Shown: positions 41,461 through 54,083, counted from the first letter of the stretch. The stretch is 64,000 bases of DNA from a virus (IMGVR_UViG_3300021197_001442:31020-95019), one strand, 5' to 3'. Made by a program: numbers and translations. Notes: a model not told the origin generated them from the letters alone.

Positions 41461-41658
41461 TCAGCAATCTTCTTGGGCGCTGTCGTCGAGTTTAACTGTT
41501 GGAGGATTCATAACCATAAGGCCACCCTCGCTAAGTCTAAACTTAAAGCCCTTAAGCACTGGTACAATATCAGATTGCTCCAATAGAGACTTCTGTAGGG
41601 CCATCATCAAAGCTCCCATAGCCTGATCGCTAAGGTGCATACTATTTTCATCACTCAT
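41461..41658 (-). CDS. Hypothetical protein
   Basis: 65-aa ORF with an AAGGAG SD, filling the gap after gmd. Confidence 0.6.
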   Translation of the reverse strand: MSDENSMHLSDQAMGALMMALQKSLLEQSDIVPVLKGFKFRLSEGGLMVMNPPTVKLDDSAQEDC

Positions 41659-42649
41659 TGTTTAGCTCCTTTAATGCTAATTTGTAATCTTCCTCATACA
41701 TGAGCTTTGCTAGCTCTTTAAATTTTATTTTCGGCTGCCATCCCAAGTGGGCTTTTGCTTTTGCTGGGTTGCCCAGTAATAAAGGTACTTCATGTGGTCT
41801 AAAAAGCCTTTTGTCTATTTCTACATGCTCTTCAACGCTTAGTCCTGCATGTGCGAATACCTCGTCAAGAAACTCTCTAACTGTGTGGGTCTCGCCAGTG
41901 GCTATGACATAGTCATCTGGCTTGTCTTTCTGGAGCATCATCCACATGGCCACAACATAGTCACCAGCATAACCCCAATCTCGCTTGGCATCTAAATTTC
42001 CTAGATACAGCTTTTCTTGAACTCCTAACTTTATCCGTGCCGCTGCCATAGTTATTTTGCGAGTTACAAAAGTTTCACCCCTGCGGGGGGATTCATGATT
42101 AAATAGTATTCCTGAGGAGGCGTGAATACCGTAGCTTTCTCTGTAGTTTCTAACAAGATGGTGAGCGCACACTTTTGCACAAGCGTAAGGAGAAGCAGGC
42201 ATCAACAAAGTTTCCTCTGTCTGTGGGACTAATGGATTATCACCAAACATTTCGGATGAGGATGCCTGGTAATATTTAATCGATCGGTCGGTGTTGCGGA
42301 TACACTCCAATATGTTTAGCGTGCCCATAGCTATTGTTTTTAGAGTCTCTTCGGGGACATCAAACGATACCCTAACGTGCGACTGAGCGGCCAAGTTGTA
42401 AAACTCGGAAGGGGAGTATTCTCCTAGGATCCTGTATAAGCAACTGCTATCATGCAGCGAGTAATATTCTAAATAAAAATTAGGATTTTTAAATAAGTGG
42501 TTTATCCTGTCTGTGCTTATCAAAGAGGTTCTCCTCTTTAACCCTACCACTTTGTAACCCTTGTCTAACAAAAATTCAGCTAGATATGAACCATCTTGGC
42601 CAGTTATGCCGGTAATCATTGCTATTTTCTTATCTGGTATATTCTTCAT
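41651..42649 (-). CDS. gmd: GDP-mannose 4,6-dehydratase
   Basis: ITGITGQDGSYLAE, LAAQSHV, QASSSEMFG, SPYACAK, LFNHESPRRGETFVTRKI. Start moved to 42649 (AGGAGG SD). Confidence 0.96.
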   Translation of the reverse strand: MKNIPDKKIAMITGITGQDGSYLAEFLLDKGYKVVGLKRRTSLISTDRINHLFKNPNFYLEYYSLHDSSCLYRILGEYSPSEFYNLAAQSHVRVSFDVPEETLKTIAMGTLNILECIRNTDRSIKYYQASSSEMFGDNPLVPQTEETLLMPASPYACAKVCAHHLVRNYRESYGIHASSGILFNHESPRRGETFVTRKITMAAARIKLGVQEKLYLGNLDAKRDWGYAGDYVVAMWMMLQKDKPDDYVIATGETHTVREFLDEVFAHAGLSVEEHVEIDKRLFRPHEVPLLLGNPAKAKAHLGWQPKIKFKELAKLMYEEDYKLALKELNNE

Positions 42650-43523
42650 ACGTCCTCCTAAAGCCTTCCTCAAACGGAACAAAGTTATAATCACCTATTA
42701 AATGTAATAGCGCAACATTACTACCATCTTTCCTGTGTTGTCCATCTAAATCCCCGTTAAAAGACACCTCCACTTTCTTGTTGGCTACCTTAAACCCTAT
42801 GTCTATCATTTCTTTAATTGAATGGCTCTCTCCGGGAGCAACAATTAAAGGAGCGTCCGTGTGGTGACTATTTAGTAGCTTTTCTATGATTTCCACCATA
42901 TCATCAACATACAATTGCTGTCTAATTGCATTTCCGGAACCCCAAAACATTACCTTATCCCCGCTGTTGGCTAATGCACATCGGTGGACCAGAGAGGCTA
43001 CAAAGTGGGATGACTCTTCTCCGAACTTGTCTTCAGGGCCGTACAGATTACAGGGGGAAAAAGTTGAGTAATTTCTTCCATATTGTTTTCTGTATGACAT
43101 ACTAGCAACGTGCAACATCCTTTTTGACATTGCATACGACATGTTAGAGGCCGCTGGGGGGCCATTAAAAATATCAACCTCAGTAAATGGGTATCTGCCC
43201 ACTTTATCAGGAAACGCGCATGTGCTAAGGGCTGACAACACCCTAGCCACGTCGAACTCATGGGCCTGTTGTAGTACATTGGCGTTAATCATGTTATTCT
43301 TATACGCGAAGTCAGCTTGCCTTGTAACGTTTTCCTTAACACCGCCCACCATTGATGCAAGATGTATCACTGCCTCTGGTCTCACATCTTTAAATAAATC
43401 CTTCACTTGTGATGTACAAGTAAGATCACAATCACCAGAAGATAAATAAATCCACTGCGGGAATGACAGCCTTAGCCGCCTTCCTAGGAAACCTGAGCCG
43501 CCTGTAACTAAAATCCTACTCAC
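42630..43523 (-). CDS. fcl: GDP-L-fucose synthase (4-keto-6-deoxy epimerase/reductase)
   Basis: TGGSGFLG, HLASMVGG, LSTCAFP, YAMSK, NLYGPED; adjacent to gmd. Confidence 0.85.
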   Translation of the reverse strand: MSRILVTGGSGFLGRRLRLSFPQWIYLSSGDCDLTCTSQVKDLFKDVRPEAVIHLASMVGGVKENVTRQADFAYKNNMINANVLQQAHEFDVARVLSALSTCAFPDKVGRYPFTEVDIFNGPPAASNMSYAMSKRMLHVASMSYRKQYGRNYSTFSPCNLYGPEDKFGEESSHFVASLVHRCALANSGDKVMFWGSGNAIRQQLYVDDMVEIIEKLLNSHHTDAPLIVAPGESHSIKEMIDIGFKVANKKVEVSFNGDLDGQHRKDGSNVALLHLIGDYNFVPFEEGFRRTYEEYTR

Positions 43524-44104
43524 GCTTTTCTTAGCTCCGAATCTTTCAGGCGATCTTTCTCTTGCCTAATCGAGGGACAGTGATTTCCTGTCCTGTGGAT
43601 TAGGTCATAAAAAATCATAAGAATGGAGACTTCTACAGTATGGAAATAATTACATTTAATTGATAATTCATCAATCCCATCTCTCAGGAACTCAGACTCA
43701 CTACCACTAATTAAAAACGTAGCAAACCCTTCATCTTCTCCCCAATGCAGTGTATTAATGACGTTTCCAGAATTACCGGAACAAGAAAGGCCAATAATTA
43801 GGCACTCTTCAGGATTTTCAACACTCGCTATTGTCTGAAGCCACCTAATAAATATCTGACTGTAGCCATGATCGTTAGCATTAGAAGTAATAAACCCAAC
43901 ACTGTCAAAAGAGTAGACTGCTTTGTTTGGTATTAATCTTGACAAGTCTGTTGCCATGTGACTTGCTACATAATGCAAGCCGCCATTACCTATAAGAAAT
44001 ATTTTCTTTGCCTTATTGACCTTCTCTACCAGCGTAGTGTATTCGTCGCTAGAAGCGGCGACCATGCACTTATCTTCAATATTCTCAAAATCAATCAACA
44101 TCAT
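43520..44104 (-). CDS. SIS-domain sugar-phosphate isomerase (GmhA-like)
   Basis: IGNGG, ANDHGY and LSCSGNSGNV. Confidence 0.8.
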   Translation of the reverse strand: MMLIDFENIEDKCMVAASSDEYTTLVEKVNKAKKIFLIGNGGLHYVASHMATDLSRLIPNKAVYSFDSVGFITSNANDHGYSQIFIRWLQTIASVENPEECLIIGLSCSGNSGNVINTLHWGEDEGFATFLISGSESEFLRDGIDELSIKCNYFHTVEVSILMIFYDLIHRTGNHCPSIRQEKDRLKDSELRKA

Positions 44105-45264
44105 ATTATTGTCTCTCTAAAAATTTGTAATGCATGCTCAACTTCATGCTCATTTAAATTTAAGTTTGGCCTCAGCCTAATTGACTTAAAACCTGTCTTA
44201 TTGCAAATTAATCCATTTCTATATAAATTCTCTACTACTATATCACGCTTTTGAGAGTTTGGCAAGTCAAATCCTATAATTAAACCACAATTTCTCAAAT
44301 TTAATATCCCATCTATCTCTGAGAGTCCGCGAACTAAAGTGCTACTTTGAATATTCACATTATCAAGTATATTGTACTGATTGTACGCCCTTATGATATA
44401 CTTGCACCTGACCATGTCAGATATATCCCCGTCCCAAGTAACCTCAAGTCTAATGGAATTTTGTTTACTAAAGATGTCACTATACTTTTCTTTCACCATA
44501 ATGCCAGAAAGTTGCGTCTTCTTACCAAAGATCACAACATCTGGCTCGATGCCTAGATGTTCGTAATACCAGAGTTTCCCGGTGCCCCCAAAGCCAACTT
44601 GAATTTCATCAAAAACTAGAGGCACGTCATATTCATCACAAGCTTGCCTAATCTGTTTAAAAAAATGCTTGTCAAAGTAGATATCCCCAGCGCTACATTG
44701 CACTGGTTCTACAATCAGACAAGTGACTTCAGTCGTTCTAAATAGTTTATAAACTTCTTTGATATCTGGCCGGATCTTGGTTGAATATGGCTCTGGGAAC
44801 CCGGCTAACCTAACGTCTGCGCCGGGAAATCTTGATGTGATAAAACCACCGTAACTGTTTATCCCATGAAAACTGTTGTCGAAGGACACAATATTTAGAT
44901 TGTGACATTTTTTATACTGTAGGCAAGTCTTAATCGCTGCTTCTACCGCTAATGCTCCAGTACACGAATAGTGGAAGTGAGAAAACAGCCCTCTTCCAGC
45001 ATACTCCCGGAACATTTTATCAAATTCATCAGTCTCATTTGAGGTGAACTCACAGTTGTTGACTTTGTACCTTGACACTCTCAAATACTCCCGCTTGAAC
45101 TCAGGAGTAGAGAATATAGGATGACTGTACCCTAAAGGCAACGATGCATACATTCCAAAAAAATCTAGATACTGTCTTTGCGTATTTCTATCGAAAAGAT
45201 ATGAATCATGACTTTTATCAAAATCTACTTTGATATTAAATTTTGTGCTTCGTGCTATAGACAT
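44101..45264 (-). CDS. Class III PLP aminotransferase (L-lysine 6-transaminase-like)
   Basis: YLDFFGMYAS, TGALAVEAAIK, SFHG, FDEIQVGFG, FGKK and TWDGD..DMVR. Confidence 0.88.
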   Translation of the reverse strand: MSIARSTKFNIKVDFDKSHDSYLFDRNTQRQYLDFFGMYASLPLGYSHPIFSTPEFKREYLRVSRYKVNNCEFTSNETDEFDKMFREYAGRGLFSHFHYSCTGALAVEAAIKTCLQYKKCHNLNIVSFDNSFHGINSYGGFITSRFPGADVRLAGFPEPYSTKIRPDIKEVYKLFRTTEVTCLIVEPVQCSAGDIYFDKHFFKQIRQACDEYDVPLVFDEIQVGFGGTGKLWYYEHLGIEPDVVIFGKKTQLSGIMVKEKYSDIFSKQNSIRLEVTWDGDISDMVRCKYIIRAYNQYNILDNVNIQSSTLVRGLSEIDGILNLRNCGLIIGFDLPNSQKRDIVVENLYRNGLICNKTGFKSIRLRPNLNLNEHEVEHALQIFRETII

Positions 45265-46328
45265 AAACTCCCTACCATATATTCATGAATAATATTTTTC
45301 AATTCTTGATGATCGATAATTTTAGTCACTCGTATATCACCTAACTCGTAAGGTAACACGCAAACTATACAGTCATCAATATTTTTCTTATCTTTCTTTA
45401 GTAAAGAGTAATACTCTTCTTCCAACTCTATGGGTACTCTATAGTCAATCAAATTCATTTTGATCGCAGAATATAATTCTTCATATTGTTTCTTGTTGAT
45501 GAAACCTTTTCTAAATGAAATATAGTTTGCTAGATCCATACCAATCGTGACTGCGAGTCCATGAGGCACCCTGTATCCGCTGATCGCTTCGATTGCATGG
45601 CCAAAAGTATGACCATAGTTAAAGACTCTTCTTTCGTTCTCATCAAACTCATCTTTTTCGACCATATTTCTTTTAATTCGTAAGCTCTCAGCGATATACT
45701 GCGACAGATGCCCAACAGGATTGGATAATATGTTATGGTAGTCGCCAACAAATCTAGTAATAAGTTCACTATTTTCTATAAGGTAGTAGTGTAATATTTC
45801 ACCAATACCTGATTTAATATCATTGATACTCAATGTTTCTAGAAACTCTGGACAGCAATTGATGTGTGACGGCGGATAAAAAGTTCCTATTGCGTTTTTA
45901 GTGTTTAAGAAGTTTATAGAACTCTTACTTCCAATACAACTATCTGCTTGAGCTAACAAGGTTGTGGGCATAAACTCCCACTCAACACCCCTATAGATAA
46001 CAGAAGAAACAAAAGCAGTGACATCTTGAGTTATGCCTCCACCAATTGCCAATAGCTTGTGATTTCTTTTAAACCCTACAGAAATTAGAAAACTAATCAC
46101 TTGTTCACAAGTCTTCAGTGTCTTAGTTTGTTCATTTGCTTCTATGACATAGGTTTTTGATGAATTAAACGACTCTTTAATTAGAGGATATATCATGTAT
46201 ATGTTTGAATCAACAATAACACATGTATTCTCGTCATAAGAGTCTAGCAAATTGCTATTTAAACTAGCAAAATTCACCATGTATTCCCTACGATATGATT
46301 TAACTTTTAATGGATCAAGTTCAAACAT
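45255..46328 (-). CDS. 3-dehydroquinate synthase-like sugar-phosphate cyclase family enzyme
   Basis: GGGITQD, PTTLLAQADS, KN, FNYGHTFGHAIE, HGLAV and DKK. Confidence 0.88.
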   Translation of the reverse strand: MFELDPLKVKSYRREYMVNFASLNSNLLDSYDENTCVIVDSNIYMIYPLIKESFNSSKTYVIEANEQTKTLKTCEQVISFLISVGFKRNHKLLAIGGGITQDVTAFVSSVIYRGVEWEFMPTTLLAQADSCIGSKSSINFLNTKNAIGTFYPPSHINCCPEFLETLSINDIKSGIGEILHYYLIENSELITRFVGDYHNILSNPVGHLSQYIAESLRIKRNMVEKDEFDENERRVFNYGHTFGHAIEAISGYRVPHGLAVTIGMDLANYISFRKGFINKKQYEELYSAIKMNLIDYRVPIELEEEYYSLLKKDKKNIDDCIVCVLPYELGDIRVTKIIDHQELKNIIHEYMVGSLCL

Positions 46329-47037
46329 TCACAAACCCACCATCAACAATTATATTTTGACCTGAAATGTACGAATTTAATTCGCTGGCCATAAACAAAA
46401 CGACTTTAGATATCTCAGCCGGTTCTGCCATTCGACCCATGGGAATATTCTGTGATATCTCTTGCATTCTCTCCGGCCCTAGCACTTGGCGAGTCAAGTC
46501 AGTGAGCGTGAAGCCAGGAGACACGGTGTTAACAAGTACGTTAAACCGCGATAGTTCAGCCGCTGACGCGAGGGTAAGACCTCTTAATCCAAACTTACTA
46601 GAAGAGTAAGCAGCACGCTTAGCGACACTAATAGAGCCCCATATAGATGCTATATTGATTATCTTGCCGTAACCCTGCTTGACCATGTTATCAACAACTG
46701 CTTGCTGTATTAAAAAAGGAGCGGTTAAATTTACTTTTAGGATGTGATCCCAATCCTCTCTCTTGACATCACAAAATGAATCGATTTTATTTATTCCAGC
46801 GTTGTTGATACAAATGTCATATGTTTGATTTGATATTACTTCAATAAATTTATTTGTACTTTCGTTATCTAAAAAGTCAACCTGCATGTATTCTACGCCT
46901 GGGAAGATACAGTGAGATTTCTTACCAGTGACGGTAAGAGTCGCACCAAGATCTAGCATGTCTTCCGCAATCTGCCTTCCAATGCCTCTGGTCCCTCCAG
47001 TGACAAGAACTCTTTTGTTTTTAAAATCAATTTTCAT
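46321..47037 (-). CDS. Short-chain dehydrogenase/reductase (FabG-like)
   Basis: TGGTRGIG, NNAG and YSSSK. Start moved to ATG 47037. Confidence 0.9.
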   Translation of the reverse strand: MKIDFKNKRVLVTGGTRGIGRQIAEDMLDLGATLTVTGKKSHCIFPGVEYMQVDFLDNESTNKFIEVISNQTYDICINNAGINKIDSFCDVKREDWDHILKVNLTAPFLIQQAVVDNMVKQGYGKIINIASIWGSISVAKRAAYSSSKFGLRGLTLASAAELSRFNVLVNTVSPGFTLTDLTRQVLGPERMQEISQNIPMGRMAEPAEISKVVLFMASELNSYISGQNIIVDGGFVNV

Positions 47038-48163
47038 TTGTATGCTTACCATCTGGGTAAACATGCGCGACATCTTCTCTGCTAACAGCGAGTCTAATCG
47101 CAGGCTTATCACCAGTTGCTTCAATCCTATGAACTACACCTTTTTCAATAAACACAACGTCATCTTTCTTAATCAGTTTCTTTTCACCTTCAATTTCCCA
47201 GATCCACTCTCCGTCAATAATATACCACCATTCGTTCCAGTCTGGATGATAGTGTCTCCGGTTTCCTTGACCCGGCTGCTGGTGTATAACCGTAGCGCTA
47301 TTGTTTTCAGTGTTAACAACTCTGTGACTCCAAGATGTACTACTGTCAAACGATGCTCTGATGTCGTTAATATTAACGATTTGTTTGTTTGCATCATGCA
47401 AGTTGTTAACCATAACACCGTCTTTCACCAAAATAGACGGCACATCCACCTCCGAATGTTCTTCGCCATAGTACTGTGGGGCATAGCTTTTAGACGCCAA
47501 TGATCGTGCAACTACTTCTGCTAGTTGGAAGTCTTTTTCATTATCGATGTCAATAACCGCAAAACCATCAAGCACATAAAATTTAATTTTACCATCGCCA
47601 CCATGATACCCACAACCATACTCATCCATGTTGTTAATATAATTGCTAGTCTTCCAGCCCATCAGCCCACACGCGTAAGCCTGTACTGGAATTAAGTCTT
47701 GCGAAGGCGGGGAGAGTTTCTTTTGATCAAAATTAACTGGGCTATCATCATACACGCACTCAATCTGCTGATTTGCGACTGATACGAGTGTGTCTAAATC
47801 ATCATCAATTATTTTTTTAGTAAAACTTACAATATCATCCTTTGATATAAAAGGGGAAGTTGGCAATATTTGAATCAAGACATCACAATCAATATTTTTT
47901 ATAAAATCTGCTGTGAACTCATCATTTGTTGCACTGTTAGTCGAAAGCTCACCGGGTCTTTTATAGAATTTAACACCCTCTTCGATTGCAATTGCACCTA
48001 GAATATCAGATTCAGAGTTAACATACACCTCATCAAAACATCCTGACGCTTTTGCTGCTCTAATGGCATAGCTTATCATCGGCACGCCGTTCAAGAGCCG
48101 AATATTTTTCTTAAGGACTCTAGTACTACCCATGCGGGCAGGTATCATTGCTACTACTTTCAT
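47027..48163 (-). CDS. CMP-ulosonate synthetase (NeuA/KdsB-like) fused to a C-terminal cupin
   Basis: IPARMGSTRVLKKN, PTSPF and DIDNEKDF, followed by cupin HYHPDWNEWW...GVVH. Confidence 0.9.
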   Translation of the reverse strand: MKVVAMIPARMGSTRVLKKNIRLLNGVPMISYAIRAAKASGCFDEVYVNSESDILGAIAIEEGVKFYKRPGELSTNSATNDEFTADFIKNIDCDVLIQILPTSPFISKDDIVSFTKKIIDDDLDTLVSVANQQIECVYDDSPVNFDQKKLSPPSQDLIPVQAYACGLMGWKTSNYINNMDEYGCGYHGGDGKIKFYVLDGFAVIDIDNEKDFQLAEVVARSLASKSYAPQYYGEEHSEVDVPSILVKDGVMVNNLHDANKQIVNINDIRASFDSSTSWSHRVVNTENNSATVIHQQPGQGNRRHYHPDWNEWWYIIDGEWIWEIEGEKKLIKKDDVVFIEKGVVHRIEATGDKPAIRLAVSREDVAHVYPDGKHTNEN

Positions 48164-49011
48164 TTTTTATTAACCAATCCTATTGTTTTTTTAAAATTTT
48201 CTTGCAAGTAATCGTCCAAGGACAGTTTTTTACCATAATGAAAATAAATCATTTTATGAAAATAATTTATTTGTGGAATCTGCTGGTGGATATCGATCCT
48301 CAAGTCTGAGAAGTTGGGTACGTTTCTTACATCTTCCCTAAAATTGCCATTTTTCATAGCTTCCTTGTGGTATTTGTCGTAGTACACTTCTCCAAAAGTG
48401 TTCATGTTGAAAAACGTCATTCCTGTAACGTGTAGACTTTCTATTTCGTAGTTTAGAAGAGTTATTATACCCATCAACCCAGTGTTACAAGTGGTCCCTA
48501 CCTCTTTAAAGACCTTAAACAGATAGCCATCACACACATTATGCCATGGCGTGCCTACCTCATCAAGAAAATTATGTACCCTCTGTACATCCCACATGGA
48601 GACCATTGGACAAACAATATATTTTAAAGACCTGGCGAACTGCATGTTTTTACGTAAAGCGTTTATTTTATGTATATTCAGGCAATTCATTAAAATATCT
48701 GTTCTTTCCCCGTAGTCTTCCCATAAATCTTCAGTCATATGAAAGTTTTGATTAACCCTAACTACAAGATCATGGGAGTCTATCCAAGATCCTAATTTTT
48801 TTCCGCGCAAATGCGGTGAAGGGCACACGTAAGCAATTCTTTTACCATTGATTAGATTAGCTAAATCTTCATTATAATTATAATCACGAAAGTCATCAAC
48901 GAAAGGCCCTCTACGACCAAGGTCGGCTAGTTGGTAGTCGGGAGGTGGGGTAGAGGATTGCCAAGGTGGTGGTCTGTTTGATAACGGTATGCCAATAATA
49001 TCTTTCTTCAT
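48160..49011 (-). CDS. GT29 sialyltransferase-like glycosyltransferase
   Basis: Sialylmotif-L-like RIAYV...LGSWIDSHDLVVRVN...DYGERTD, motif-S-like NTGLMGI...LHVTGMTF and a downstream His. Start moved to 49011. Confidence 0.75.
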   Translation of the reverse strand: MKKDIIGIPLSNRPPPWQSSTPPPDYQLADLGRRGPFVDDFRDYNYNEDLANLINGKRIAYVCPSPHLRGKKLGSWIDSHDLVVRVNQNFHMTEDLWEDYGERTDILMNCLNIHKINALRKNMQFARSLKYIVCPMVSMWDVQRVHNFLDEVGTPWHNVCDGYLFKVFKEVGTTCNTGLMGIITLLNYEIESLHVTGMTFFNMNTFGEVYYDKYHKEAMKNGNFREDVRNVPNFSDLRIDIHQQIPQINYFHKMIYFHYGKKLSLDDYLQENFKKTIGLVNKK

Positions 49012-49015
49012 TATT

Positions 49016-49963
49016 TCACCAAACAAACTTATTCTTATGATATTCAACTATTTTCTGAATTTCTTCATCGAAAGATTTATTGGGCTGCCACCCAAGTTGT
49101 CGAAGTCTAGAATCATCAAGTGCATATCTTACATCTTGACCTGGACGGGAGTATGAGAAATCAACATACTGTCGCCAGTCTTGCGTGTTGTGGTAGTGTA
49201 ACACGATTTTGCGAACAGTCTCGGAATTTTTCTGTTCGTGGCCCCCCGCTACATTATAGATCTCGTTAACTTTACCAGAGTCTATTATAGACAACACGGC
49301 CTCAGCCGTGTCATCAGCATGAAGCCAGTTCCTAACAGGTTCGCCATTGTTGTGAAGTCTTATCTTTTTACCTCTAAACAATTTTTTTACAGAAAGTGGA
49401 ATTAATTTTTCAGGATATTGTCCTATCCCATAATTGTTTGTTGGTCTCAATATAATGTATTCCACACCATAGGTTCGAGCCCAAGCAGTGATAAGCATAT
49501 CCGCTGACGCTTTCGCTGCTGCATATGGGTTACTGGGGCGAAGAAGTGAATCTTCTGTGTGATATCCAGAAACTAAATCACCATACACCTCGTCCGTGCT
49601 AAAATGAAACAATATTGGTCTTCTGGCTATATTGTTGGGCTTATGTCTAATCAAGTCTAATAAATTCTTGACAGCTATTATATTACTTTCTATAAACTCA
49701 TCGCTCTTTACTATGCTATTGCCTACGTGCGACTCGGCTGCGGTATTAATAATATAATCACAGTCGTACAAGTGGTCTAGGTCCTTTACATCTTTCCGTT
49801 CGAATACAAAATTGTTATATTTAGAAAATTCCTCAAGAAAAGATGTGTTTGCAGCATAAGTCATTTTGTCAATACCACGAACATACCAGCCTTTCTGGAG
49901 GCATTTTCTTGTCACATAGGAGCCTATAAAACCCAGGCACCCTGTTACATAGACTACTTTCAT
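49016..49963 (-). CDS. rfbB: dTDP/NDP-glucose 4,6-dehydratase
   Basis: GCLGFIG, AAESHV, STDEVYG, PYAAAK, NNYG..QYPEKLIP and RPGQDVRY. Confidence 0.9.
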   Translation of the reverse strand: MKVVYVTGCLGFIGSYVTRKCLQKGWYVRGIDKMTYAANTSFLEEFSKYNNFVFERKDVKDLDHLYDCDYIINTAAESHVGNSIVKSDEFIESNIIAVKNLLDLIRHKPNNIARRPILFHFSTDEVYGDLVSGYHTEDSLLRPSNPYAAAKASADMLITAWARTYGVEYIILRPTNNYGIGQYPEKLIPLSVKKLFRGKKIRLHNNGEPVRNWLHADDTAEAVLSIIDSGKVNEIYNVAGGHEQKNSETVRKIVLHYHNTQDWRQYVDFSYSRPGQDVRYALDDSRLRQLGWQPNKSFDEEIQKIVEYHKNKFVW

Positions 49964-51375
49964 TTCAGTCCTTCAAAAAACTTATCCACAGTTTTCTTTA
50001 TGTATGAAATTTTCTCATCTGTTAGACCAATATATGTGCCCAGAAACACAGATCCCATTGTCACCGTGTGGGCGTTAGGGAATACAGCATCCAAATCTTC
50101 ATACTGCTTGGCCATCTCTTGGTACGCTGGGTGGTACAAAGCATTGCCGGTAAAATATGATCGTGTTTGGATTTTTGCTTTTTCCATGTGTCTAACAAAT
50201 TGTTGTTTCTCGAAAGGAGCATCCGGTTTGGTCACAAGCAGAAACCCAAACCAACATGGATCTGCCTTTTCTGTTGCCTTTGGCAGATAAAAATATTTCT
50301 CGTATGGCTTAAAAATTTTATACAGCTTGTTAAAGTTGTTTCTTCTGGCCTGATCCATTTGGGGCAACTTTTTAAGCTGCTGTAGTCCCATGGCAGCCTG
50401 TAGATCAAGAGGCTTAATATTATAGCCTATTTCATCAAAGACGTATCTATGATCATAAACAGCCTTAGGGCATCCCGGCAGCCACTCCTTAAATCTGTCT
50501 CCGCAGGCTGTTCCAGCAGTGACATCACCTGGCTTCATTTCATTGCAGAAGCAGGCACGACCCCAATCTCTAAAGCTTGCAACTGTAGACCTAATGGCCC
50601 TTGAGTTTGTAGCCACAAAGCCACCCTCTCCCATAGTCATATGGTGGGCCGGGAAGAACGAGCAAGTCGACATAAGACCAAAAGAGCCTAATTTCTTGCC
50701 GTCATACGTAGAGCCTAAAGCGTCACAAGCATCTTCCAGAAAGATAAGATTATGCTTGTTAACAAGCTTCATTAATCTATCCATATCAGGTGGGTTACCC
50801 AATACGTGAGCAAAAATAATTGCTTTTATTTCTTTATCTTTATCATTGTCAAGTAGTTCCTCAACCATGTCAAGGTTTAAGTTTACGCTTGGAAGATCCA
50901 CATCTACAAATACAGGCACCAGACCATTTTGTATCAGGGGGTTGATAGTTGTTGGGAAACATACAACCGGAGTAATGACTTTATCACCCTTATTGAGACG
51001 GTATTTGGCAGGCATTTTGTTTTTTGAGGTTAAAGAAGAAACCATAAGCAAATTTGCAGAAGAACCTGAATTGGTTAGGCACCCATGCTTCATACCCAAA
51101 TGCTTAGGGAAGGCAATTTCAAAATTTCTACAGTTTTTGCCATATATAAGCCATTCGCCTAGAAGAGTTTCTACAGCTTTAGAATATTCGTTGCCATCAA
51201 TGTGAGGGCCAGAATACTTTACCCAATCTTTCCCAGCCTCCCATTTTTCAGCAGATCTCACTTCGGAAATATAGTCTTCCACTAAATTAAGAATCTTATC
51301 AAGTTTGGTTTTCTTTTTAGGTAAAACTTTTGCTATACTCTTTGTTAAAATATTAATATACTTGTTAGTCGACAT
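49960..51375 (-). CDS. rfbH: NDP-4-keto-6-deoxyglucose 3-dehydratase (E1, RfbH/DdhC)
   Basis: NSGSSANL; SFFPAHHMTMGEGG (His in place of the PLP Lys); RDWGRACFC...TACG Fe-S cysteines. Confidence 0.9.
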   Translation of the reverse strand: MSTNKYINILTKSIAKVLPKKKTKLDKILNLVEDYISEVRSAEKWEAGKDWVKYSGPHIDGNEYSKAVETLLGEWLIYGKNCRNFEIAFPKHLGMKHGCLTNSGSSANLLMVSSLTSKNKMPAKYRLNKGDKVITPVVCFPTTINPLIQNGLVPVFVDVDLPSVNLNLDMVEELLDNDKDKEIKAIIFAHVLGNPPDMDRLMKLVNKHNLIFLEDACDALGSTYDGKKLGSFGLMSTCSFFPAHHMTMGEGGFVATNSRAIRSTVASFRDWGRACFCNEMKPGDVTAGTACGDRFKEWLPGCPKAVYDHRYVFDEIGYNIKPLDLQAAMGLQQLKKLPQMDQARRNNFNKLYKIFKPYEKYFYLPKATEKADPCWFGFLLVTKPDAPFEKQQFVRHMEKAKIQTRSYFTGNALYHPAYQEMAKQYEDLDAVFPNAHTVTMGSVFLGTYIGLTDEKISYIKKTVDKFFEGLK

Positions 51376-52212
51376 TTAAACTCTCTTTAATTCATCATAC
51401 ATGGCTTTAATTCCATATTCTAAACCTTTTAATTTTAAAGATAAGCCGTCTATTTTTTGGCTTGATCCAATATAAGATTTTGCAAGTCCTTCTTGATTTA
51501 GTATAATATTATGTGGGTTGTTTGTCAAGTATTTTATCATATTTCCTATATCAACCAAGGAGTGCTTTTTTCCGTAACACATATTGCAATCAAAAGGCTT
51601 TTCAAAGTCTTCTAAGAGAACATAATCTAATACTCGCAATAAATCCATAACCCAAAAAAAATCCATATGTTTGTTTTGGTGTATTTCTATAGGCAACCCA
51701 TTTAAGGACCTAACTAAATTGTTTTTTATAAACCTATTATTATTTTCATACAAGCCAAAACAACCAAATAATCTTAAATTGATAAACTTACCATTATTAT
51801 TTTTTATATCTTTAGCAATCAAATTCTTTGCTAATCCGTAATAATCTCTTGGGAAAGCATCTATGATCTCCTGTTCTCTGGCGCGTTGTACACCCAGATT
51901 CCTATCAAATGCCGCTCCTGAACAGAAGTTAATAACTTTCTTAAATCTGTCACTGTTTGATTTTATATTCTCATACATTTTTAGATTGGTGACAAAACTC
52001 TCAAGATCCTCCGTGTCGCCTCTCTTACCACCTCTTATCGCAGTGTGTATCACAACATCAGTTTTATTATATTGCAAGAATTCTTGTAGTTGGTCAGGAT
52101 GCGAAAGGTCTAAAGCACTACTTGTAGGGGAAAGAATATTATGTTTACCAGAGTAATGCTTTATTATATGTCTGCCCAAAAATCCACTGCCGCCTGTTAC
52201 TAATATATTCAT
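51376..52212 (-). CDS. NAD-dependent epimerase/reductase (extended SDR)
   Basis: TGGSGFLG, YGLAK and LRLFGCFG. Confidence 0.85.
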   Translation of the reverse strand: MNILVTGGSGFLGRHIIKHYSGKHNILSPTSSALDLSHPDQLQEFLQYNKTDVVIHTAIRGGKRGDTEDLESFVTNLKMYENIKSNSDRFKKVINFCSGAAFDRNLGVQRAREQEIIDAFPRDYYGLAKNLIAKDIKNNNGKFINLRLFGCFGLYENNNRFIKNNLVRSLNGLPIEIHQNKHMDFFWVMDLLRVLDYVLLEDFEKPFDCNMCYGKKHSLVDIGNMIKYLTNNPHNIILNQEGLAKSYIGSSQKIDGLSLKLKGLEYGIKAMYDELKRV

Positions 52213-52213
52213 A

Positions 52214-52696
52214 CTAGTTTCGTTTTAAATTAAAATAAGACGAACTTGATGTGTCCTTTATATATTTGCTAGCAAGTAAGCGCATCTCATCAACACTATC
52301 CGGCCAATAACAATCTATATTAGGCAGACATGACATGACTTGCTTATCTTCTTCAGCCCAATGAGAAAACCCAAGATATCCATAATCTTTATCCCTGCCG
52401 CCTCCTATTAGCTTAACAGGCCAGCCTTCATGGTCCAGATAGTTTCTTATATACTCAAAAGGTCGGTATAACAAGAAAGAGGTGATTGAATACACAACAG
52501 GTATTTTATTTTCCATAGCCATTCCTACTGCTGCGCCTAACATTAACTGCTCCGATGACCCCATATTATAAAATCTAGAGGGATAGTCAATTTTTATTTT
52601 ATCCCAAAGTCCGTATCCCAAGTCACCCGTTAGAAGAACTATTCTCTCGTCCTCTGACATGATTTCATGTAAAAGCTCACTAAACTGCTTTCTCAT
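52214..52696 (-). CDS. Transketolase-like pyrimidine-binding subunit
   Basis: LTGDLG, NMGSSEQ..LG.AVG, FLLYRPFEYIR; only 160 aa. Confidence 0.85.
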   Translation of the reverse strand: MRKQFSELLHEIMSEDERIVLLTGDLGYGLWDKIKIDYPSRFYNMGSSEQLMLGAAVGMAMENKIPVVYSITSFLLYRPFEYIRNYLDHEGWPVKLIGGGRDKDYGYLGFSHWAEEDKQVMSCLPNIDCYWPDSVDEMRLLASKYIKDTSSSSYFNLKRN

Positions 52697-53378
52697 TCAA
52701 CTCTCTCCTCTTGGTAATTAAAATTACTCTAGCTTCTTCATATTCTTGTTTTTTCATAATATGATAGTGAGCGTTTATCCCTCTTAAGAAAGAAAAATGA
52801 CCCACGCTTGTAAAATAAACCTTAATATCTGGCAAGAATGACTGTAGCCTCCTTACGAGGTACCTTGTGTCCACCGAATCATAAGCACAGTAGCCGTTCA
52901 CGTTAACGTGAACAGTTATATTTTTTATGTTGGCGTTGTGTATAAATGATAGTGATTCCCAAATAGATCCCTCAGCGCACTCTCCATCACTGATCAAGCA
53001 GTGAACGTTTTTAGATGGGTCGGCCAATGCTCTCCCTACTGCAACTGTCAAGCCCATACCAAGACTCCCTGTGGAGCAGTGGATTTCACAATCTTTATTG
53101 AAGTGGGGGTGGCCTCCTTGTAGCTCAAATAAGTGATCGGCTGATATAGCTTTATACTTCTCTAAAACACAATACAAGGCTACAGCACAATGCCCAGATG
53201 ACAAAATAAAGATATCCTTCGTATCTGAGATACTCATCTCTTGGTATATTTTATCTATAATATCGACACTAGAAAAATAGCTACCAAGGTGTGATAATTT
53301 ATTTTTATATGCAATATCTAAAATGCGAAGTTTTAAGTCACAATCACCTTCTAGGGGTTTAATTATGTTGGTTTCCAC
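52680..53378 (-). CDS. Transketolase-like N-terminal ThDP-binding subunit
   Basis: SHLGS, ILSSGH, GHP, STGSLGMG and SDGECAEGSIWE...N. Confidence 0.88.
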   Translation of the reverse strand: METNIIKPLEGDCDLKLRILDIAYKNKLSHLGSYFSSVDIIDKIYQEMSISDTKDIFILSSGHCAVALYCVLEKYKAISADHLFELQGGHPHFNKDCEIHCSTGSLGMGLTVAVGRALADPSKNVHCLISDGECAEGSIWESLSFIHNANIKNITVHVNVNGYCAYDSVDTRYLVRRLQSFLPDIKVYFTSVGHFSFLRGINAHYHIMKKQEYEEARVILITKRRELNEKAV

Positions 53379-54082
53379 TTTTCTCTCCAGTAGTCTTGTA
53401 TCATTTTTTCATAGTTGTTGGGGTCTTGATGCATTTCCCAAGTCGCTTGTTCCGGGTGCCATCTATAGTTATAACCCAAATATTGACCAGATGGATATAT
53501 GAATACATCGTTATCTGCTAGTCTACAATAAAGATCATAATCAGCAGCGCCGCTATATTTATCAGGGTATGTCTCTAGAAGGCCAGAGGTAAACAATTCT
53601 CTTGAATACACAGCCGTTGGACTCAAAACAGGACAACTAAGTAAGCACATATCTTTAAATTCTTGCAGTGTCCTATAGTATACAGCTGAGCTTCCCTCCC
53701 TCATACCAATGTTTTTAATTCCGCTTTGAAACGCTTTTATTCTACCTTTGCCAGCAGATATAAATGCCATGCAATTAGAAATATAACTACGCTCATATTT
53801 ATCATCTGCCGCCAAAGTAAAAAGGTAATCGCCGCTAGCTAAGCGAAAACCCTCTTGCCTTGGTTCATCCCAACACCTTTTATATATGTTTTTCGCAGAA
53901 GCTAATATTAAATTTGGATAATTAATTTTAATATCTTTTGCTATCTTGCAAGAATTATCTGTGCTCTCATTGTCGACAAATATAACTTCAAAAGACCCAT
54001 AGTCCTGCCTAAGGGCAGATAAAAGTGTTTCTTCTAGCCAGTTTTCTGCGTTGTAGCAGGGCACTATAATACTAGCTTTCAT
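53363..54082 (-). CDS. GT2 family glycosyltransferase
   Basis: SIIVPCYN, VDNESTD, AADD and DYDL. Start moved to 54082. Confidence 0.88.
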   Translation of the reverse strand: MKASIIVPCYNAENWLEETLLSALRQDYGSFEVIFVDNESTDNSCKIAKDIKINYPNLILASAKNIYKRCWDEPRQEGFRLASGDYLFTLAADDKYERSYISNCMAFISAGKGRIKAFQSGIKNIGMREGSSAVYYRTLQEFKDMCLLSCPVLSPTAVYSRELFTSGLLETYPDKYSGAADYDLYCRLADNDVFIYPSGQYLGYNYRWHPEQATWEMHQDPNNYEKMIQDYWREKWKPT

Positions 54083-54083
54083 C

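What the first reader, a model, noticed from the sequence alone, without database searches (positions are those of the whole stretch)
43520..49011. Unusual CMP-sugar/GT29 pathway with a dehydroquinate-synthase-like enzyme and no NeuB/KdsA
Seen: six tightly overlapping genes encoding a GT29-like transferase, NeuA/KdsB-cupin, SDR, AroB-like enzyme, Lat-like class III aminotransferase and SIS isomerase. Established: NeuA/KdsB and GT29 handle CMP-ulosonic acids, which normally come from NeuB/KdsA; AroB-family enzymes oxidise, eliminate phosphate from and cyclise sugar phosphates. No ulosonate synthase is in the window. Inference: the phage converts a host ulosonate phosphate (DAHP or Kdo8P) or a heptose phosphate into a terminal-deoxy/amino ulosonate or an aminocyclitol sialic-acid mimic, activates it with CMP and transfers it. 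I do not recognise this gene combination as a characterised pathway.
Basis: partly seen in the sequence, partly recalled or inferred. Interest (0 to 1): 0.85.

Follow-up and report, generated by a model that had tools for sequence, protein, structure and literature searches.

The report
Phage CMP-sugar-acid cassette with AroB-like enzyme
An uncultured T4-like phage carries six overlapping genes, shared with many other phages and bacteria but never studied, that most likely build, CMP-activate and transfer an unknown sialic-acid-like amino/deoxy sugar acid, using a relative of the shikimate enzyme dehydroquinate synthase to remove a phosphate.

Summary
Six overlapping minus-strand genes at 43520-49011 encode a GmhA-like SIS isomerase, a class III aminotransferase, a dehydroquinate-synthase-like enzyme (NCBIfam TIGR04425), an SDR, a NeuA/PseF-like cytidylyltransferase fused to a metal cupin, and a GT29-like transferase. 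No NeuB, KdsA/DAHP synthase, HpcH or DHDPS-type aldolase is found in the 95-kb record, nor in a 98%-complete sister phage.

The cassette recurs in tens of viral and metagenome contigs. The AroB-like/SDR pair recurs in about 130 of 160 bacterial, archaeal and viral loci.

- The AroB-like enzyme keeps the DHQS-type active-site pattern. It does not have the pattern of sedoheptulose-7-P cyclases or 2-deoxy-scyllo-inosose synthases. This favours a DAHP-like, carboxylate-bearing substrate over the aminocyclitol reading.
- In sister cassettes a small HAD phosphatase stands exactly where SDR plus the AroB-like gene stand here, and the two never occur together. The pair therefore looks like a deoxygenating way of removing a terminal phosphate.
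- The fullest cassettes add a Gfo/Idh/MocA and a SerA/PdxB-like dehydrogenase, which this phage lacks. The lack of a synthase here may therefore mean dependence on the host.

The product, the role of the isomerase and the site of amination remain unknown. The scan had already noted this module on other DNA. No paper on it was found.

The parts
43520..44104 (-). GmhA-like SIS phosphosugar isomerase (194 aa)
   Evidence: Family scores are weak: SIS_2 20 bits, gmhA 55 bits. GmhA structures are the best PDB matches. Aligned to E. coli GmhA, 56 cassette homologues keep H61, D94 and the phosphate serines S119, S121 and S124. E65 becomes D, Q172 becomes E, and H180 becomes Y or H.
44101..45264 (-). 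Class III (LAT-like) PLP aminotransferase (387 aa)
   Evidence: PF00202 scores 183 bits and LAT_fam 259 bits, below its cut-off. The nearest structure is M. tuberculosis lysine epsilon-aminotransferase, 178 bits. The PLP lysine motif FGKKTQ and R422 are kept, but LAT's R170 is I and E243 is S. Close homologues always lie beside the cupin-fused cytidylyltransferase.
45255..46328 (-). Dehydroquinate-synthase-like enzyme, TIGR04425 family (357 aa)
   Evidence: TIGR04425 scores 401.5 bits against a cut-off of 400; aroB scores 266.5 against 305. DHQS structures are the best PDB matches. Twelve of 13 DHQS active-site positions are kept, with K197 replaced by H. It belongs to a glycan-context clade that is separate from aro-operon AroB.
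46321..47037 (-). Classical SDR (FabG/KduD/glucose-1-dehydrogenase-like), fixed partner of the DHQS-like gene (238 aa from the ATG at 47037)
   Evidence: adh_short_C2 scores 160 bits. An SDR of this cluster lies within 7-8 kb of the DHQS-like gene, mostly directly upstream, in 59 of 80 bacterial and 70 of 80 viral loci. The start codon was checked.
47027..48163 (-). NeuA/PseF-like cytidylyltransferase fused to a metal-binding cupin (378 aa)
   Evidence: CTP_transf_3 scores 70 bits and Cupin_2 61 bits; PseF scores 92 bits. NeuA structures are the best PDB matches. The cupin residues H304, H306, E311 and H345 are invariant in 20 homologues. The cupin is a separate gene in L092, L094 and L095.
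48160..49011 (-). GT29-like (sialyltransferase-like) glycosyltransferase (283 aa)
   Evidence: PF00777 scores 27.2 bits against a cut-off of 23. A profile of 16 homologues hits ST3Gal1 at 1.7e-7 and ST6Gal1 at 4.5e-7, over the sialyl-motif-L region only. The start codon was checked.
41651..43523 (-). Flank, not assigned to the pathway: GDP-mannose 4,6-dehydratase (41651-42694) and an Fcl-like extended SDR (42630-43523)
   Evidence: GDP_Man_Dehyd scores 429 bits; GDP-fucose synthase scores 166 bits, below its cut-off. This pair follows the SIS gene in most type-1 and HAD-type cassettes.
49016..59223 (-). Flank: the rest of the glycan island. It holds an RmlB-like dehydratase, an RfbH-like DegT enzyme, an RmlD-like reductase, a split transketolase, GT2, two Glyco_trans_1_2 proteins, an unknown 278-aa protein and two GT4.

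Best explanation
The six genes are a phage copy of a widespread, uncharacterised cassette. It makes a CMP-activated 2-ulosonic (sialic-acid/Kdo-like) sugar acid and transfers it to a glycan built by the neighbouring glycosyltransferases.

Proposed order of steps:
1. The GmhA-like isomerase converts a phosphosugar, most simply sedoheptulose-7-P to an aldoheptose-7-P.
2. In the fullest versions of the cassette, a Gfo/Idh/MocA dehydrogenase and a SerA/PdxB-like 2-hydroxyacid dehydrogenase would oxidise C1 and then C2. The product would be a hept-2-ulosonate 7-phosphate, that is, a DAHP-like molecule. This phage lacks both genes, so it must take that intermediate, or DAHP itself, from the host.
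3. The DHQS-like enzyme binds this sugar, which carries both a carboxylate and a phosphate. It removes the phosphate by the DHQS chemistry of NAD+ oxidation followed by beta-elimination, leaving a terminal-deoxy keto sugar acid. A plain HAD phosphatase does the corresponding step in sister cassettes.
4. The partner SDR reduces a keto group, and the aminotransferase installs an amino group at a position that is not known.
5. The cupin probably prepares the right anomer or isomer, like YhcH beside the bacterial enzymes, and the fused cytidylyltransferase makes the CMP-sugar.
6. The GT29-like enzyme transfers it.

Shown here: gene content and linkage, the DHQS-type active-site pattern, and the HAD versus DHQS+SDR alternation. 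Inferred: the substrate, the order of steps, the absence of ring closure, and the roles of the isomerase, the cupin and the aminotransferase.
For: - Domain assignments are.
- Linkage of the DHQS-like gene: an SDR lies in the neighbourhood in 59 of 80 bacterial and 70 of 80 viral loci. SIS and a CTP_transf_3 gene accompany it in the CMP-type loci. No shikimate genes accompany it, except in 11 true aro loci that form a separate clade.
- Active-site pattern: all cassette enzymes keep R130, D146, K152, N162, E194, K250, R264, N268, H271, H275, H287 and K356, as aro-operon AroB does. PGAP-annotated sedoheptulose-7-P cyclases have K250M, R264A/E, N268D, H275P and K356E/L. DOIS have R264G/A and N268E.
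- Phosphatase alternation: of 56 viral loci with the cupin-fused cytidylyltransferase, 30 have the DHQS-like gene (31 have the SDR) and 11 have a roughly 130-aa protein in the same slot. None has both.
- That protein carries the HAD motifs DFDGV...DD. Its model (pLDDT 82) matches small HAD sugar-phosphate phosphatases such as phage AfhF and GmhB.
- Fullest cassettes: L237, L248, L240 and L242 add GFO and 2HADH. The 2HADH is nearest to SerA and PdxB, which oxidise phosphorylated 2-hydroxy acids.
- The isomerase keeps the phosphate-binding serines and the metal/catalytic positions of GmhA.
- Bacterial cytidylyltransferases in these loci sit beside YhcH-family (Neu5Ac anomerase) genes. The phage cupin has an invariant His/His/Glu/His site.
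- The cytidylyltransferase is nearest to NeuA and PseF. The transferase matches animal sialyltransferases.
Against: - No enzyme of the module has been assayed and no glycan with such a sugar is known to me.
- This phage and a 98%-complete relative lack GFO, 2HADH and every synthase or aldolase searched for. The route is therefore incomplete here.
- If host DAHP is the substrate, the conserved isomerase has no role.
- HAD-type cassettes hold the aminotransferase but no short-chain SDR or DHQS-like gene of the cassette, although extended-SDR genes lie close by. The source of its carbonyl is therefore unexplained.
- About half of the bacterial CMP-type loci carry an HpcH aldolase next to a KdsB-like cytidylyltransferase. 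A few loci (phage and other) carry KdsA, which points to other skeletons.
- The enzyme keeps every DHQS residue, so ring closure to a dehydroquinate-like carbocycle cannot be excluded. The enol-pyranose intermediate of DHQS is reported to cyclise by itself (my recollection).
- The residue roles (R264 and K250 binding the carboxylate) are recalled from the A. nidulans DHQS literature, which I could not read here.
Confidence: 0.5

Rival explanations
1. Carbocyclic product. The enzyme is a true cyclising synthase that makes 3-dehydroquinate or an analogue from DAHP. The SDR or the aminotransferase then converts the ring ketone to a quinate-like or amino-quinate-like acid. The tertiary C1-OH/COOH of that acid mimics the anomeric centre of a sialic acid, so it is CMP-activated and attached as a carba-sugar.
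For: Every DHQS catalytic residue is kept in most of the family, and only K197 is replaced by H in this clade. The score to aroB is high, 266 bits. NCBIfam's own name for TIGR04425 says 'cyclizing'. C1 of dehydroquinate carries OH and COOH, like C2 of an ulosonic acid (chemistry).
Against: A sialyltransferase-like enzyme needs a donor that can form an oxocarbenium-like transition state, and a carbocycle without a ring oxygen cannot (inference). A plain phosphatase replaces the enzyme in otherwise identical cassettes. That fits two variants of one sugar, hydroxy versus deoxy, better than a sugar versus a carbocycle. The family forms a clade apart from aro-operon AroB, with its own invariant changes at four aligned positions: Q for G, W for F/Y, C for S, and GSKSS for GGKTG.
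Confidence: 0.2
2. Kdo-derived sugar. The isomerase plays the part of KdsD. Host or phage KdsA makes Kdo-8-P. The HAD enzyme, or the DHQS-like enzyme plus SDR, plays the part of KdsC. The aminotransferase makes an amino-Kdo comparable to Kdo8N, and the cytidylyltransferase plays the part of KdsB.
For: KdsA-type genes with the KANRT motif, scoring 261-309 bits to Kdo8P synthase models, lie inside or near some cassettes: L096 (by cluster membership also L119), L180/L181 and L209. The isomerase - synthase - phosphatase - cytidylyltransferase logic is that of the Kdo pathway. Small cap-less HAD enzymes such as KdsC are typical ulosonate-phosphate phosphatases (my knowledge).
Against: In Kdo-8-P pyranose the phosphate lies one carbon too far for a DHQS-type elimination from a C5 ketone (inference). 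The phosphate and carboxylate ligands of DHQS are all unchanged, which argues for a seven-carbon substrate. The phages that have KdsA elsewhere also have a separate KdsD-type isomerase, so the GmhA-like one is not simply KdsD. KdsA is absent from most cassettes and from the 98%-complete genome.
Confidence: 0.15
3. The DHQS-like/SDR pair makes a deoxy precursor or a side group, not the CMP-activated acid itself. One example would be the aldehyde partner for an aldolase. The CMP-sugar would then be an ordinary host-type nonulosonic acid or Kdo.
For: The same pair occurs without any cytidylyltransferase or isomerase in a second context. There it sits with an acetolactate-synthase-like ThDP enzyme, a weak HpcH-like protein, an FGGY kinase, an HMGL-like aldolase and a HAD enzyme, in 31 bacterial and 37 viral loci. 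In bacterial CMP-type loci HpcH sits next to the cytidylyltransferase, as if the aldolase acted last.
Against: In the phage cassettes no aldolase or synthase exists to use such a precursor. The DHQS-type carboxylate and phosphate ligands imply that its own substrate is already a sugar acid. HAD and DHQS+SDR alternate in the slot next to the cytidylyltransferase.
Confidence: 0.1
4. An ordinary aroB carried as an auxiliary metabolic gene to boost host aromatic amino-acid synthesis, lying next to glycan genes by chance.
For: High similarity to AroB and intact catalytic residues.
Against: The score is below the aroB cut-off and at the TIGR04425 cut-off. The clade is separate from aro-operon genes. 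The linkage to SDR, isomerase, cytidylyltransferase and aminotransferase is conserved across some 130 loci, with overlapping reading frames. No other shikimate gene is in the cassettes.
Confidence: 0.03

Closest known systems
3-Dehydroquinate synthase (AroB, EC 4.2.3.4; TIGR01357; e.g. PDB 3CLH, 3OKF, 1DQS)
   Same: Same fold and Pfam domains. Twelve of 13 active-site positions are identical, including those that differ in sedoheptulose-7-P cyclases and DOIS. It therefore probably carries out the same NAD+-dependent oxidation and phosphate beta-elimination on a DAHP-like acid.
   Different: It scores below the aroB cut-off and falls in a separate clade. K197 is replaced by H here. Family-specific changes occur near the phosphate loop. 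It is never in a shikimate context and is always paired with an SDR. A HAD phosphatase can stand in its place. Whether it closes the ring is unknown.
Kdo and Kdn/Neu5Ac-9-P pathways (isomerase or epimerase, PEP-dependent synthase, HAD phosphatase KdsC/NANP, CMP-synthetase KdsB/NeuA)
   Same: The logic is phosphosugar isomerase, then ulosonate phosphate, then phosphate removal, then CMP activation, then a sialyl/Kdo-type transferase. Sister cassettes use a small HAD phosphatase at the same step.
   Different: There is no PEP-dependent synthase in this phage. The isomerase is GmhA-like, not KdsD-like. Phosphate removal is by a DHQS-like lyase plus an SDR. An aminotransferase and a cupin are added.
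NDP-hexose 4,6-dehydratase, 4-aminotransferase and 4-reductase logic (RmlB/Gmd, DegT enzymes, RmlD)
   Same: Transient NAD+ oxidation next to the ring carbon, elimination of the exocyclic leaving group to give a keto-deoxy sugar, then reduction or transamination. In the second phage cassette type a DegT aminotransferase sits directly beside the DHQS-like gene.
   Different: The substrate is a free sugar-acid phosphate, not a nucleotide sugar. The leaving group is phosphate, not water. The enzyme fold is different. The analogy is inferred, not tested.
Kanosamine pathway NtdC/NtdA/NtdB and Kdo8N pathway KdnB/KdnA
   Same: A dehydrogenase (Gfo/Idh/MocA in NtdC) makes a keto group on a sugar phosphate or ulosonic acid, a PLP aminotransferase aminates it, and a HAD phosphatase follows (my knowledge). 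The fullest cassettes have this same set.
   Different: The aminotransferase family differs (class III, LAT-like). This phage lacks the Gfo/Idh/MocA gene. No homology to KdnA or KdnB was seen among the PDB matches.
[quoted passage not shown]
   Same: Same superfamily.
   Different: Their diagnostic substitutions (K250M, R264A/E, N268D, H275P, K356E/L; or R264G/A and N268E) are all absent here. No kinase or NDP-type nucleotidyltransferase of the C7N-cyclitol pathways is present.

Membership tests
TIGR04425, AroB-related putative sugar phosphate phospholyase (NCBIfam hypothetical equivalog) | Whole-protein score at or above the curated cut-off of 400 bits | tested here: met
   401.5 bits over residues 9-351. 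The margin is narrow.
3-dehydroquinate synthase AroB (TIGR01357) | Score at or above the curated cut-off of 305 bits | tested here: not met
   266.5 bits.
3-dehydroquinate synthase AroB (TIGR01357) | Metal, phosphate and carboxylate ligands of DHQS conserved | tested here: met
   Twelve of 13 positions are identical, with K197 replaced by H. The residue roles are recalled from the literature, not read here.
3-dehydroquinate synthase AroB (TIGR01357) | Shikimate-pathway context and function (makes dehydroquinate; complements an aroB mutant) | tested here: not met
   The context is a glycan operon in some 140 loci, and the clade is separate from aro-operon genes. The enzyme activity is not testable here.
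Sedoheptulose-7-P cyclases (EEVS/DDGS/EVS) | Active-site pattern that differs from DHQS at K250, R264, N268, H275 and K356 | tested here: not met
   The window protein has the DHQS residues at all five positions. Two PGAP-annotated cyclases have M, A/E, D, P and E/L.
2-deoxy-scyllo-inosose synthase | R264 replaced, and Glu at the N268 position | tested here: not met
   The window protein has R and N. Two annotated DOIS have G/A and E.
CMP-ulosonic-acid synthetases (Pfam CTP_transf_3; PseF, NeuA, KdsB) | Pfam domain above the gathering score; equivalog cut-offs | tested here: inconclusive
   PF02348 scores 70.5 bits against a cut-off of 22.6, so that is met. PseF scores 92 bits against 206 and KdsB models score 50 bits or less, so no equivalog cut-off is met. 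NeuA structures are the best PDB matches. The substrate is not testable here.
GT29 sialyltransferases | Pfam PF00777 above the gathering score; sialyl motifs L, S and VS | tested here: inconclusive
   27.2 bits against a cut-off of 23, covering only profile positions 61-133, the motif-L region. The profile hits ST3Gal1 and ST6Gal1 at about 1e-7 over the same region. Motifs S and VS were not examined.
GmhA sedoheptulose-7-P isomerase | Equivalog score; catalytic E65 and H180; phosphate-binding serines | tested here: inconclusive
   55 bits against cut-offs of 209-265, so not met. S119, S121, S124, H61 and D94 are kept. E65 becomes D, Q172 becomes E, and H180 becomes Y or H.
L-lysine 6-aminotransferase (TIGR03251) | Equivalog score; substrate-carboxylate Arg170 and switch residue Glu243 | tested here: not met
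   259 bits against a cut-off of 521. R170 is I and E243 is S, while the PLP lysine and R422 are kept.
Kdo pathway (KdsD, KdsA, KdsC, KdsB) | Presence of Kdo-8-P synthase KdsA | tested here: not met
   PF00793 is absent from G000 and from the 98%-complete G002. It is present only in some related cassettes.

The most novel reading that the evidence does not exclude
The DHQS-like enzyme does close the ring. The cassette would then make a quinate-like (amino)carbocyclic acid that is CMP-esterified at its tertiary hydroxyl and built into a glycan as a non-hydrolysable carba-analogue of sialic acid. That class of glycan residue, and a kind of glycosyl transfer, have not been described in any organism.
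Probability: 0.12. Interest if true: 0.92.

Novelty: new variant of a known kind. Interest (0 to 1): 0.72.

Why it matters
CMP-activated sugar acids (sialic, legionaminic and pseudaminic acids, Kdo) shape how cells and viruses are recognised. All known routes to them use a PEP- or pyruvate-dependent synthase and a plain phosphatase.

This module appears in bacteria of many phyla, in archaeal MAGs, in many aquatic T4-like phages and in giant-virus contigs. In it a copy of a core shikimate enzyme appears to have been recruited to sugar-acid biosynthesis, probably as a phosphate-eliminating deoxygenase.

If confirmed, it would add:
- a new sugar, probably a seven-carbon relative of sialic acid;
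- a new reaction type for nucleotide-sugar biosynthesis;
- a marker for an unrecognised class of surface or virion glycans in the ocean.

It also gives a testable function to NCBIfam family TIGR04425, which NCBIfam lists only as a hypothetical equivalog with a 'putative' name.

Tried and rejected
Contexts came instead from the search for related loci on genome, viral and metagenome contigs, with my own ORF calling and clustering. ORFs are longest-frame calls, not curated genes.
2. Literature: nothing was found on TIGR04425, on dehydroquinate synthase together with cytidylyltransferase or ulosonic acids, on O-antigen clusters, or on heptulosonic acids in glycans. The ValA and AROM mutagenesis papers that define the DHQS residue roles are not held, so those roles rest on memory plus the comparison.
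3. No cultured phage carries the gene. The best tblastn hits in 50,697 phage records are ordinary aroB at 29-37% identity, mostly in records that look like bacterial DNA.
4. K197 to H as a sign that amination precedes the DHQS-like step. The naive association with the aminotransferase is strong (Fisher 5e-13). However, the residue changed only about twice on the tree, and H also occurs in bacterial loci without the aminotransferase. I rejected it as evidence.
5. An aminoshikimate (AHBA)-type route using the nearby split transketolase. The transketolase is present in only 7-8 of 80 viral loci and travels with the RfbH module. No class II DAHP synthase is present. A Streptomyces plasmid DHQS-family gene, fetched as a possible aminoDHQ synthase, was not in an AHBA cluster.
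6. An ARD-like or KdgF-like role for the cupin. No specific family match was found beyond Cupin_2, so this stays speculation.
7. The aminotransferase as a true lysine aminotransferase: rejected.
8. The small protein of sister cassettes has no Pfam match. It has only weak profile hits in the PDB and no Foldseek hit below E 0.001 (best 3.8e-3). It was identified by its HAD motifs and by the nature of the top Foldseek hits, which are cap-less HAD phosphatases.

Full report
**What is there**

The window is part of a 95-kb IMG/VR virus record, estimated 41% complete. It carries a primase, a baseplate wedge protein and a late-sigma-like gene. Its baseplate wedge protein is 31% identical to those of Flavobacterium phage immuto and Microcystis phage Mel-JY01. 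It is therefore an uncultured, distantly T4-like myovirus.

All genes in the region lie on the minus strand. The six genes of the finding are real and overlap by 4-11 bases:

| Gene | Coordinates | Main evidence |
|---|---|---|
| GmhA-like SIS protein | 43520-44104 | |
| Class III aminotransferase | 44101-45264 | |
| Dehydroquinate-synthase-like protein | 45255-46328 | |
| Classical SDR | 46321-47037 | |
| CTP_transf_3 cytidylyltransferase fused to a Cupin_2 domain | 47027-48163 | |
| GT29-like protein | 48160-49011 | |

The six genes sit inside a larger glycan island, 41651-59223. The island also holds:
- Gmd and an Fcl-like gene;
- an RmlB-like, RfbH-like and RmlD-like set with a split transketolase;
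- at least five further glycosyltransferase-like genes (one GT2, two Glyco_trans_1_2, two GT4).

The DHQS-like protein reaches the curated cut-off of NCBIfam TIGR04425, 'AroB-related putative sugar phosphate phospholyase (cyclizing)', with 401.5 bits against 400. It misses the aroB cut-off with 266.5 bits against 305. The family is thus known to curators as a hypothetical equivalog, but I found no paper on it.

**Is the linkage real?**

I collected four sets of loci:
- 80 loci from one-genome-per-species contigs;
- 80 viral loci found with the DHQS-like protein;
- 61 viral loci found with the cupin-cytidylyltransferase;
- 80 metagenome loci found with the aminotransferase.

I called ORFs and clustered them.

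An SDR of one cluster lies within 7-8 kb of the DHQS-like gene, mostly directly upstream, in 59 of 80 bacterial and 70 of 80 viral loci.

Three contexts appear.

1. The CMP type, in two forms.
   - In bacteria: [HpcH aldolase - KdsB-like cytidylyltransferase - methyltransferase] - Gfo/Idh/MocA - SIS - SDR - DHQS-like - 2-hydroxyacid dehydrogenase. These are often followed by a YhcH-family gene, a NeuA-like cytidylyltransferase and MptE-like (Maf-type) transferases.
   - In phages: GT29 - cytidylyltransferase-cupin - (MptE) - SDR - DHQS-like - aminotransferase - SIS - Fcl-like - Gmd, as in this window, in about 26 contigs. A second phage form is cytidylyltransferase - DegT aminotransferase - DHQS-like - (radical SAM) - SIS.
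2. A second type without a cytidylyltransferase or SIS: an acetolactate-synthase-like ThDP enzyme, a weak HpcH-like protein, SDR and DHQS-like gene, plus or minus an FGGY kinase, an HMGL-like aldolase, a HAD enzyme and NeuB. It occurs in 31 bacterial and 37 viral loci, including giant-virus MAG contigs.
3. True aro operons, without an SDR.

In a tree rooted on annotated sedoheptulose-7-P cyclases and DOIS, the 142 glycan-context sequences form a clade. The clade has support 0.89-0.97 and is separate from 11 sequences without glycan context, at least some of them in conserved aro-type operons.

An accidental aroB is excluded for practical purposes.

**What does the DHQS-like enzyme act on?**

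I aligned cassette enzymes with aro-operon AroB. I added natural sequences that PGAP annotates as sedoheptulose 7-phosphate cyclase (two) and as 2-deoxy-scyllo-inosose synthase (two), taken from plasmid records.

| Position (A. nidulans DHQS numbering, from memory) | Cassette enzymes and AroB | Sedoheptulose-7-P cyclases | DOIS |
|---|---|---|---|
| K250 | K | M | K |
| R264 | R | A/E | G/A |
| N268 | N | D | E |
| H275 | H | P | H |
| K356 | K | E/L | K |

The cassette enzymes are also identical to AroB at R130, D146, K152, N162, E194, H271 and H287.

R264 and K250 are, as I recall, the carboxylate ligands of DAHP. The only enzymes here that lose R264 are those whose substrates have no carboxylate.

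This argues that the substrate is a 2-ulosonate phosphate with DAHP geometry: a seven-carbon chain with the phosphate on the exocyclic carbon next to the ring. It argues against sedoheptulose-7-P or glucose-6-P, and so against the aminocyclitol reading.

The one change, K197 to H, is shared by this window and a clade of about 45 sequences. It changed only about twice on the tree and also occurs in loci without the aminotransferase. I therefore draw nothing from it.

**What is the enzyme for?**

Among 56 viral loci with the cupin-fused cytidylyltransferase:
- 49 have the aminotransferase;
- 48 have the SIS gene;
- 37 have the GT29-like gene;
- 30 have the DHQS-like gene, with the SDR in 31;
- 11 have instead a conserved protein of about 130 aa in the same slot, for example L212, which otherwise has the same gene order as this window;
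- none has both. The naive hypergeometric probability is 5e-5, but the loci are related.

The small protein has no Pfam match but shows the HAD motifs DFDGV ... S/T ... K ... DD. Its model has pLDDT 82. No structural hit falls below E 0.001; the best is 3.8e-3. Most of the top hits are small cap-less HAD phosphatases: BT_0820, the phage HY126 arabinose-1,5-bisphosphate phosphatase AfhF, 1XPJ and GmhB. The role of AfhF is described in PMC13326640.

The DHQS-like/SDR pair and a sugar-phosphate phosphatase are therefore alternatives at one step. The simplest reading is that both remove the terminal phosphate of the same kind of intermediate:
- the phosphatase leaves a hydroxyl;
- the DHQS-type chemistry (oxidation, phosphate elimination) leaves a deoxy carbon and a keto group, which the SDR then reduces.

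This parallels the 9-hydroxy (Neu, Kdn) and 9-deoxy (Leg, Pse) series of nonulosonic acids. An earlier report of this scan had stated the phosphatase replacement. I reproduced it independently here.

**Where does the sugar acid come from?**

The phage record and four related records, one of them 98% complete, lack all of the following:
- NeuB;
- KdsA and class I DAHP synthase, which two of the related records do carry;
- class II DAHP synthase;
- HpcH;
- DHDPS/NanA-type aldolases;
- Gfo/Idh/MocA;
- 2-hydroxyacid dehydrogenases.

The fullest cassettes recovered with the aminotransferase do carry more: SIS - Gfo/Idh/MocA - 2-hydroxyacid dehydrogenase - SDR - DHQS-like - aminotransferase - cupin-cytidylyltransferase (L237, L248, L240, L242). 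Compact bacterial operons such as L020 and L058 have the same core without any aldolase.

The 2-hydroxyacid dehydrogenase is nearest to SerA and PdxB, which oxidise phosphorylated 2-hydroxy acids. The SIS protein keeps the phosphate-binding serines and the metal/catalytic positions of GmhA, so it should act on a phosphosugar before the phosphate is removed.

This suggests a route that needs no aldolase and balances in redox terms:
1. sedoheptulose-7-P is isomerised to an aldoheptose-7-P (SIS);
2. C1 is oxidised to the heptonate-7-P (Gfo/Idh/MocA);
3. C2 is oxidised to a hept-2-ulosonate 7-phosphate (2-hydroxyacid dehydrogenase).

The product is exactly the kind of carboxylate-plus-7-phosphate pyranose that the DHQS-type site implies. 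This is inference only.

On this view the window's cassette is a reduced copy. It would need the host for two oxidations, or it would use host DAHP directly. In the latter case the conserved isomerase is unexplained.

Other loci point to other skeletons. HpcH next to a KdsB-subfamily cytidylyltransferase occurs in about half of the bacterial CMP-type loci. Genuine KdsA with the KANRT motif occurs in a few loci, phage and other. In Kdo-8-P the phosphate is one carbon too far for DHQS-type elimination, so I rank a Kdo-derived sugar lower.

**The other genes**

- Aminotransferase. It is LAT-like in overall similarity but lacks LAT's substrate-carboxylate Arg170 and the switch residue Glu243. Its close homologues are always beside the cupin-cytidylyltransferase. 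Where it aminates is unknown. HAD-type cassettes have it without the cassette SDR or the DHQS-like gene, which I cannot explain.
- Cupin. It has an invariant His-x-His...Glu...His site and can be a separate gene. In bacteria a YhcH-family gene, the family of N-acetylneuraminate anomerase, sits beside the cytidylyltransferase. An anomerase or isomerase that feeds the cytidylyltransferase is therefore the most economical guess.
- Cytidylyltransferase. It is nearest to NeuA and PseF.
- GT29-like protein. It matches animal sialyltransferases only over the CMP-sugar-binding motif-L region.

**Ring or no ring**

Because every DHQS residue is kept, cyclisation to a dehydroquinate-like carbocycle cannot be excluded.

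Two points speak against it:
- a sialyltransferase-like enzyme needs a donor with a ring oxygen;
- a simple phosphatase can replace the enzyme.

I put the carbocycle at about 0.2 as a rival, and at 0.12 in its most novel form, a CMP-activated carba-sialic acid built into a glycan.

**Verdict**

The module is uncharacterised and widespread. It has been seen several times by this scan on other DNA.

I class it as a new variant of the known CMP-ulosonic-acid pathways, with a probable new reaction type. Interest is 0.72.

Noticed in passing
window 49016-53378 (-): A second sugar module: an RmlB-like 4,6-dehydratase, an RfbH-like (CDP-4-keto-6-deoxyglucose-3-dehydrase type) DegT enzyme scoring 468 bits, above its cut-off, an RmlD-like reductase and a transketolase split into two genes (pyrimidine-binding and ThDP-binding halves). 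This suggests a 3,6-dideoxy or two-carbon-branched hexose. The same block recurs in 7-8 related viral loci.
   Followed up: partly
L105, L114-L160, L028-L064 (loci): The DHQS-like/SDR pair has a second conserved context without a cytidylyltransferase or SIS gene. It sits with an acetolactate-synthase-like ThDP enzyme, a weak HpcH-like protein, an FGGY kinase, an HMGL-like aldolase, a HAD enzyme and sometimes NeuB. This occurs in 31 bacterial and 37 viral loci, including giant-virus MAG contigs (GVMAG). One possibility is decarboxylation of the 2-keto acid to a 2,6-dideoxy sugar. Not examined further.
   Followed up: partly
L096, L106, L107, L119, L122, L123, L159: A compact phage variant: cytidylyltransferase (no cupin) - DegT-type aminotransferase - DHQS-like - (radical SAM/SPASM protein in L107 and L159) - SIS, without the SDR. 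L096 adds a second cytidylyltransferase and a genuine KdsA; L119 has the same layout by cluster membership.
   Followed up: partly
L001 (JACAFS010000027.1, labelled Thaumarchaeota MAG, 13.9 kb): This contig is syntenic with the phage glycan island over its whole length, from the GT and transketolase genes through RfbH, GT29 and the cytidylyltransferase-cupin to SDR, DHQS-like gene and aminotransferase, at 50-76% protein identity. It is probably a viral contig binned into an archaeal MAG.
   Followed up: no
L212:10124-10504, L189:10125-10526 and 10 others (alignment A3): A family of phage HAD phosphatases of about 130 aa has no Pfam match. It is structurally closest to BT_0820 and to the phage DNA-arabosylation phosphatase AfhF. 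Here it sits in a CMP-sugar cassette.
   Followed up: yes
window 10705-38269 (-): A run of very large ORFs (1219, 1022, 2858 and 2442 aa) lies next to a baseplate wedge gene. These are presumably tail-fibre or other virion proteins and are possible targets of the glycan island. No membrane export or polymerase genes (Wzx/Wzy type) were noticed in the island.
   Followed up: no
L161 / L209 (record of L117, about 11 kb from its cassette): Some of these phages also carry a separate small Kdo set: a single-domain KdsD-like isomerase, a TagD/RfaE-II-like nucleotidyltransferase and KdsA.
   Followed up: partly
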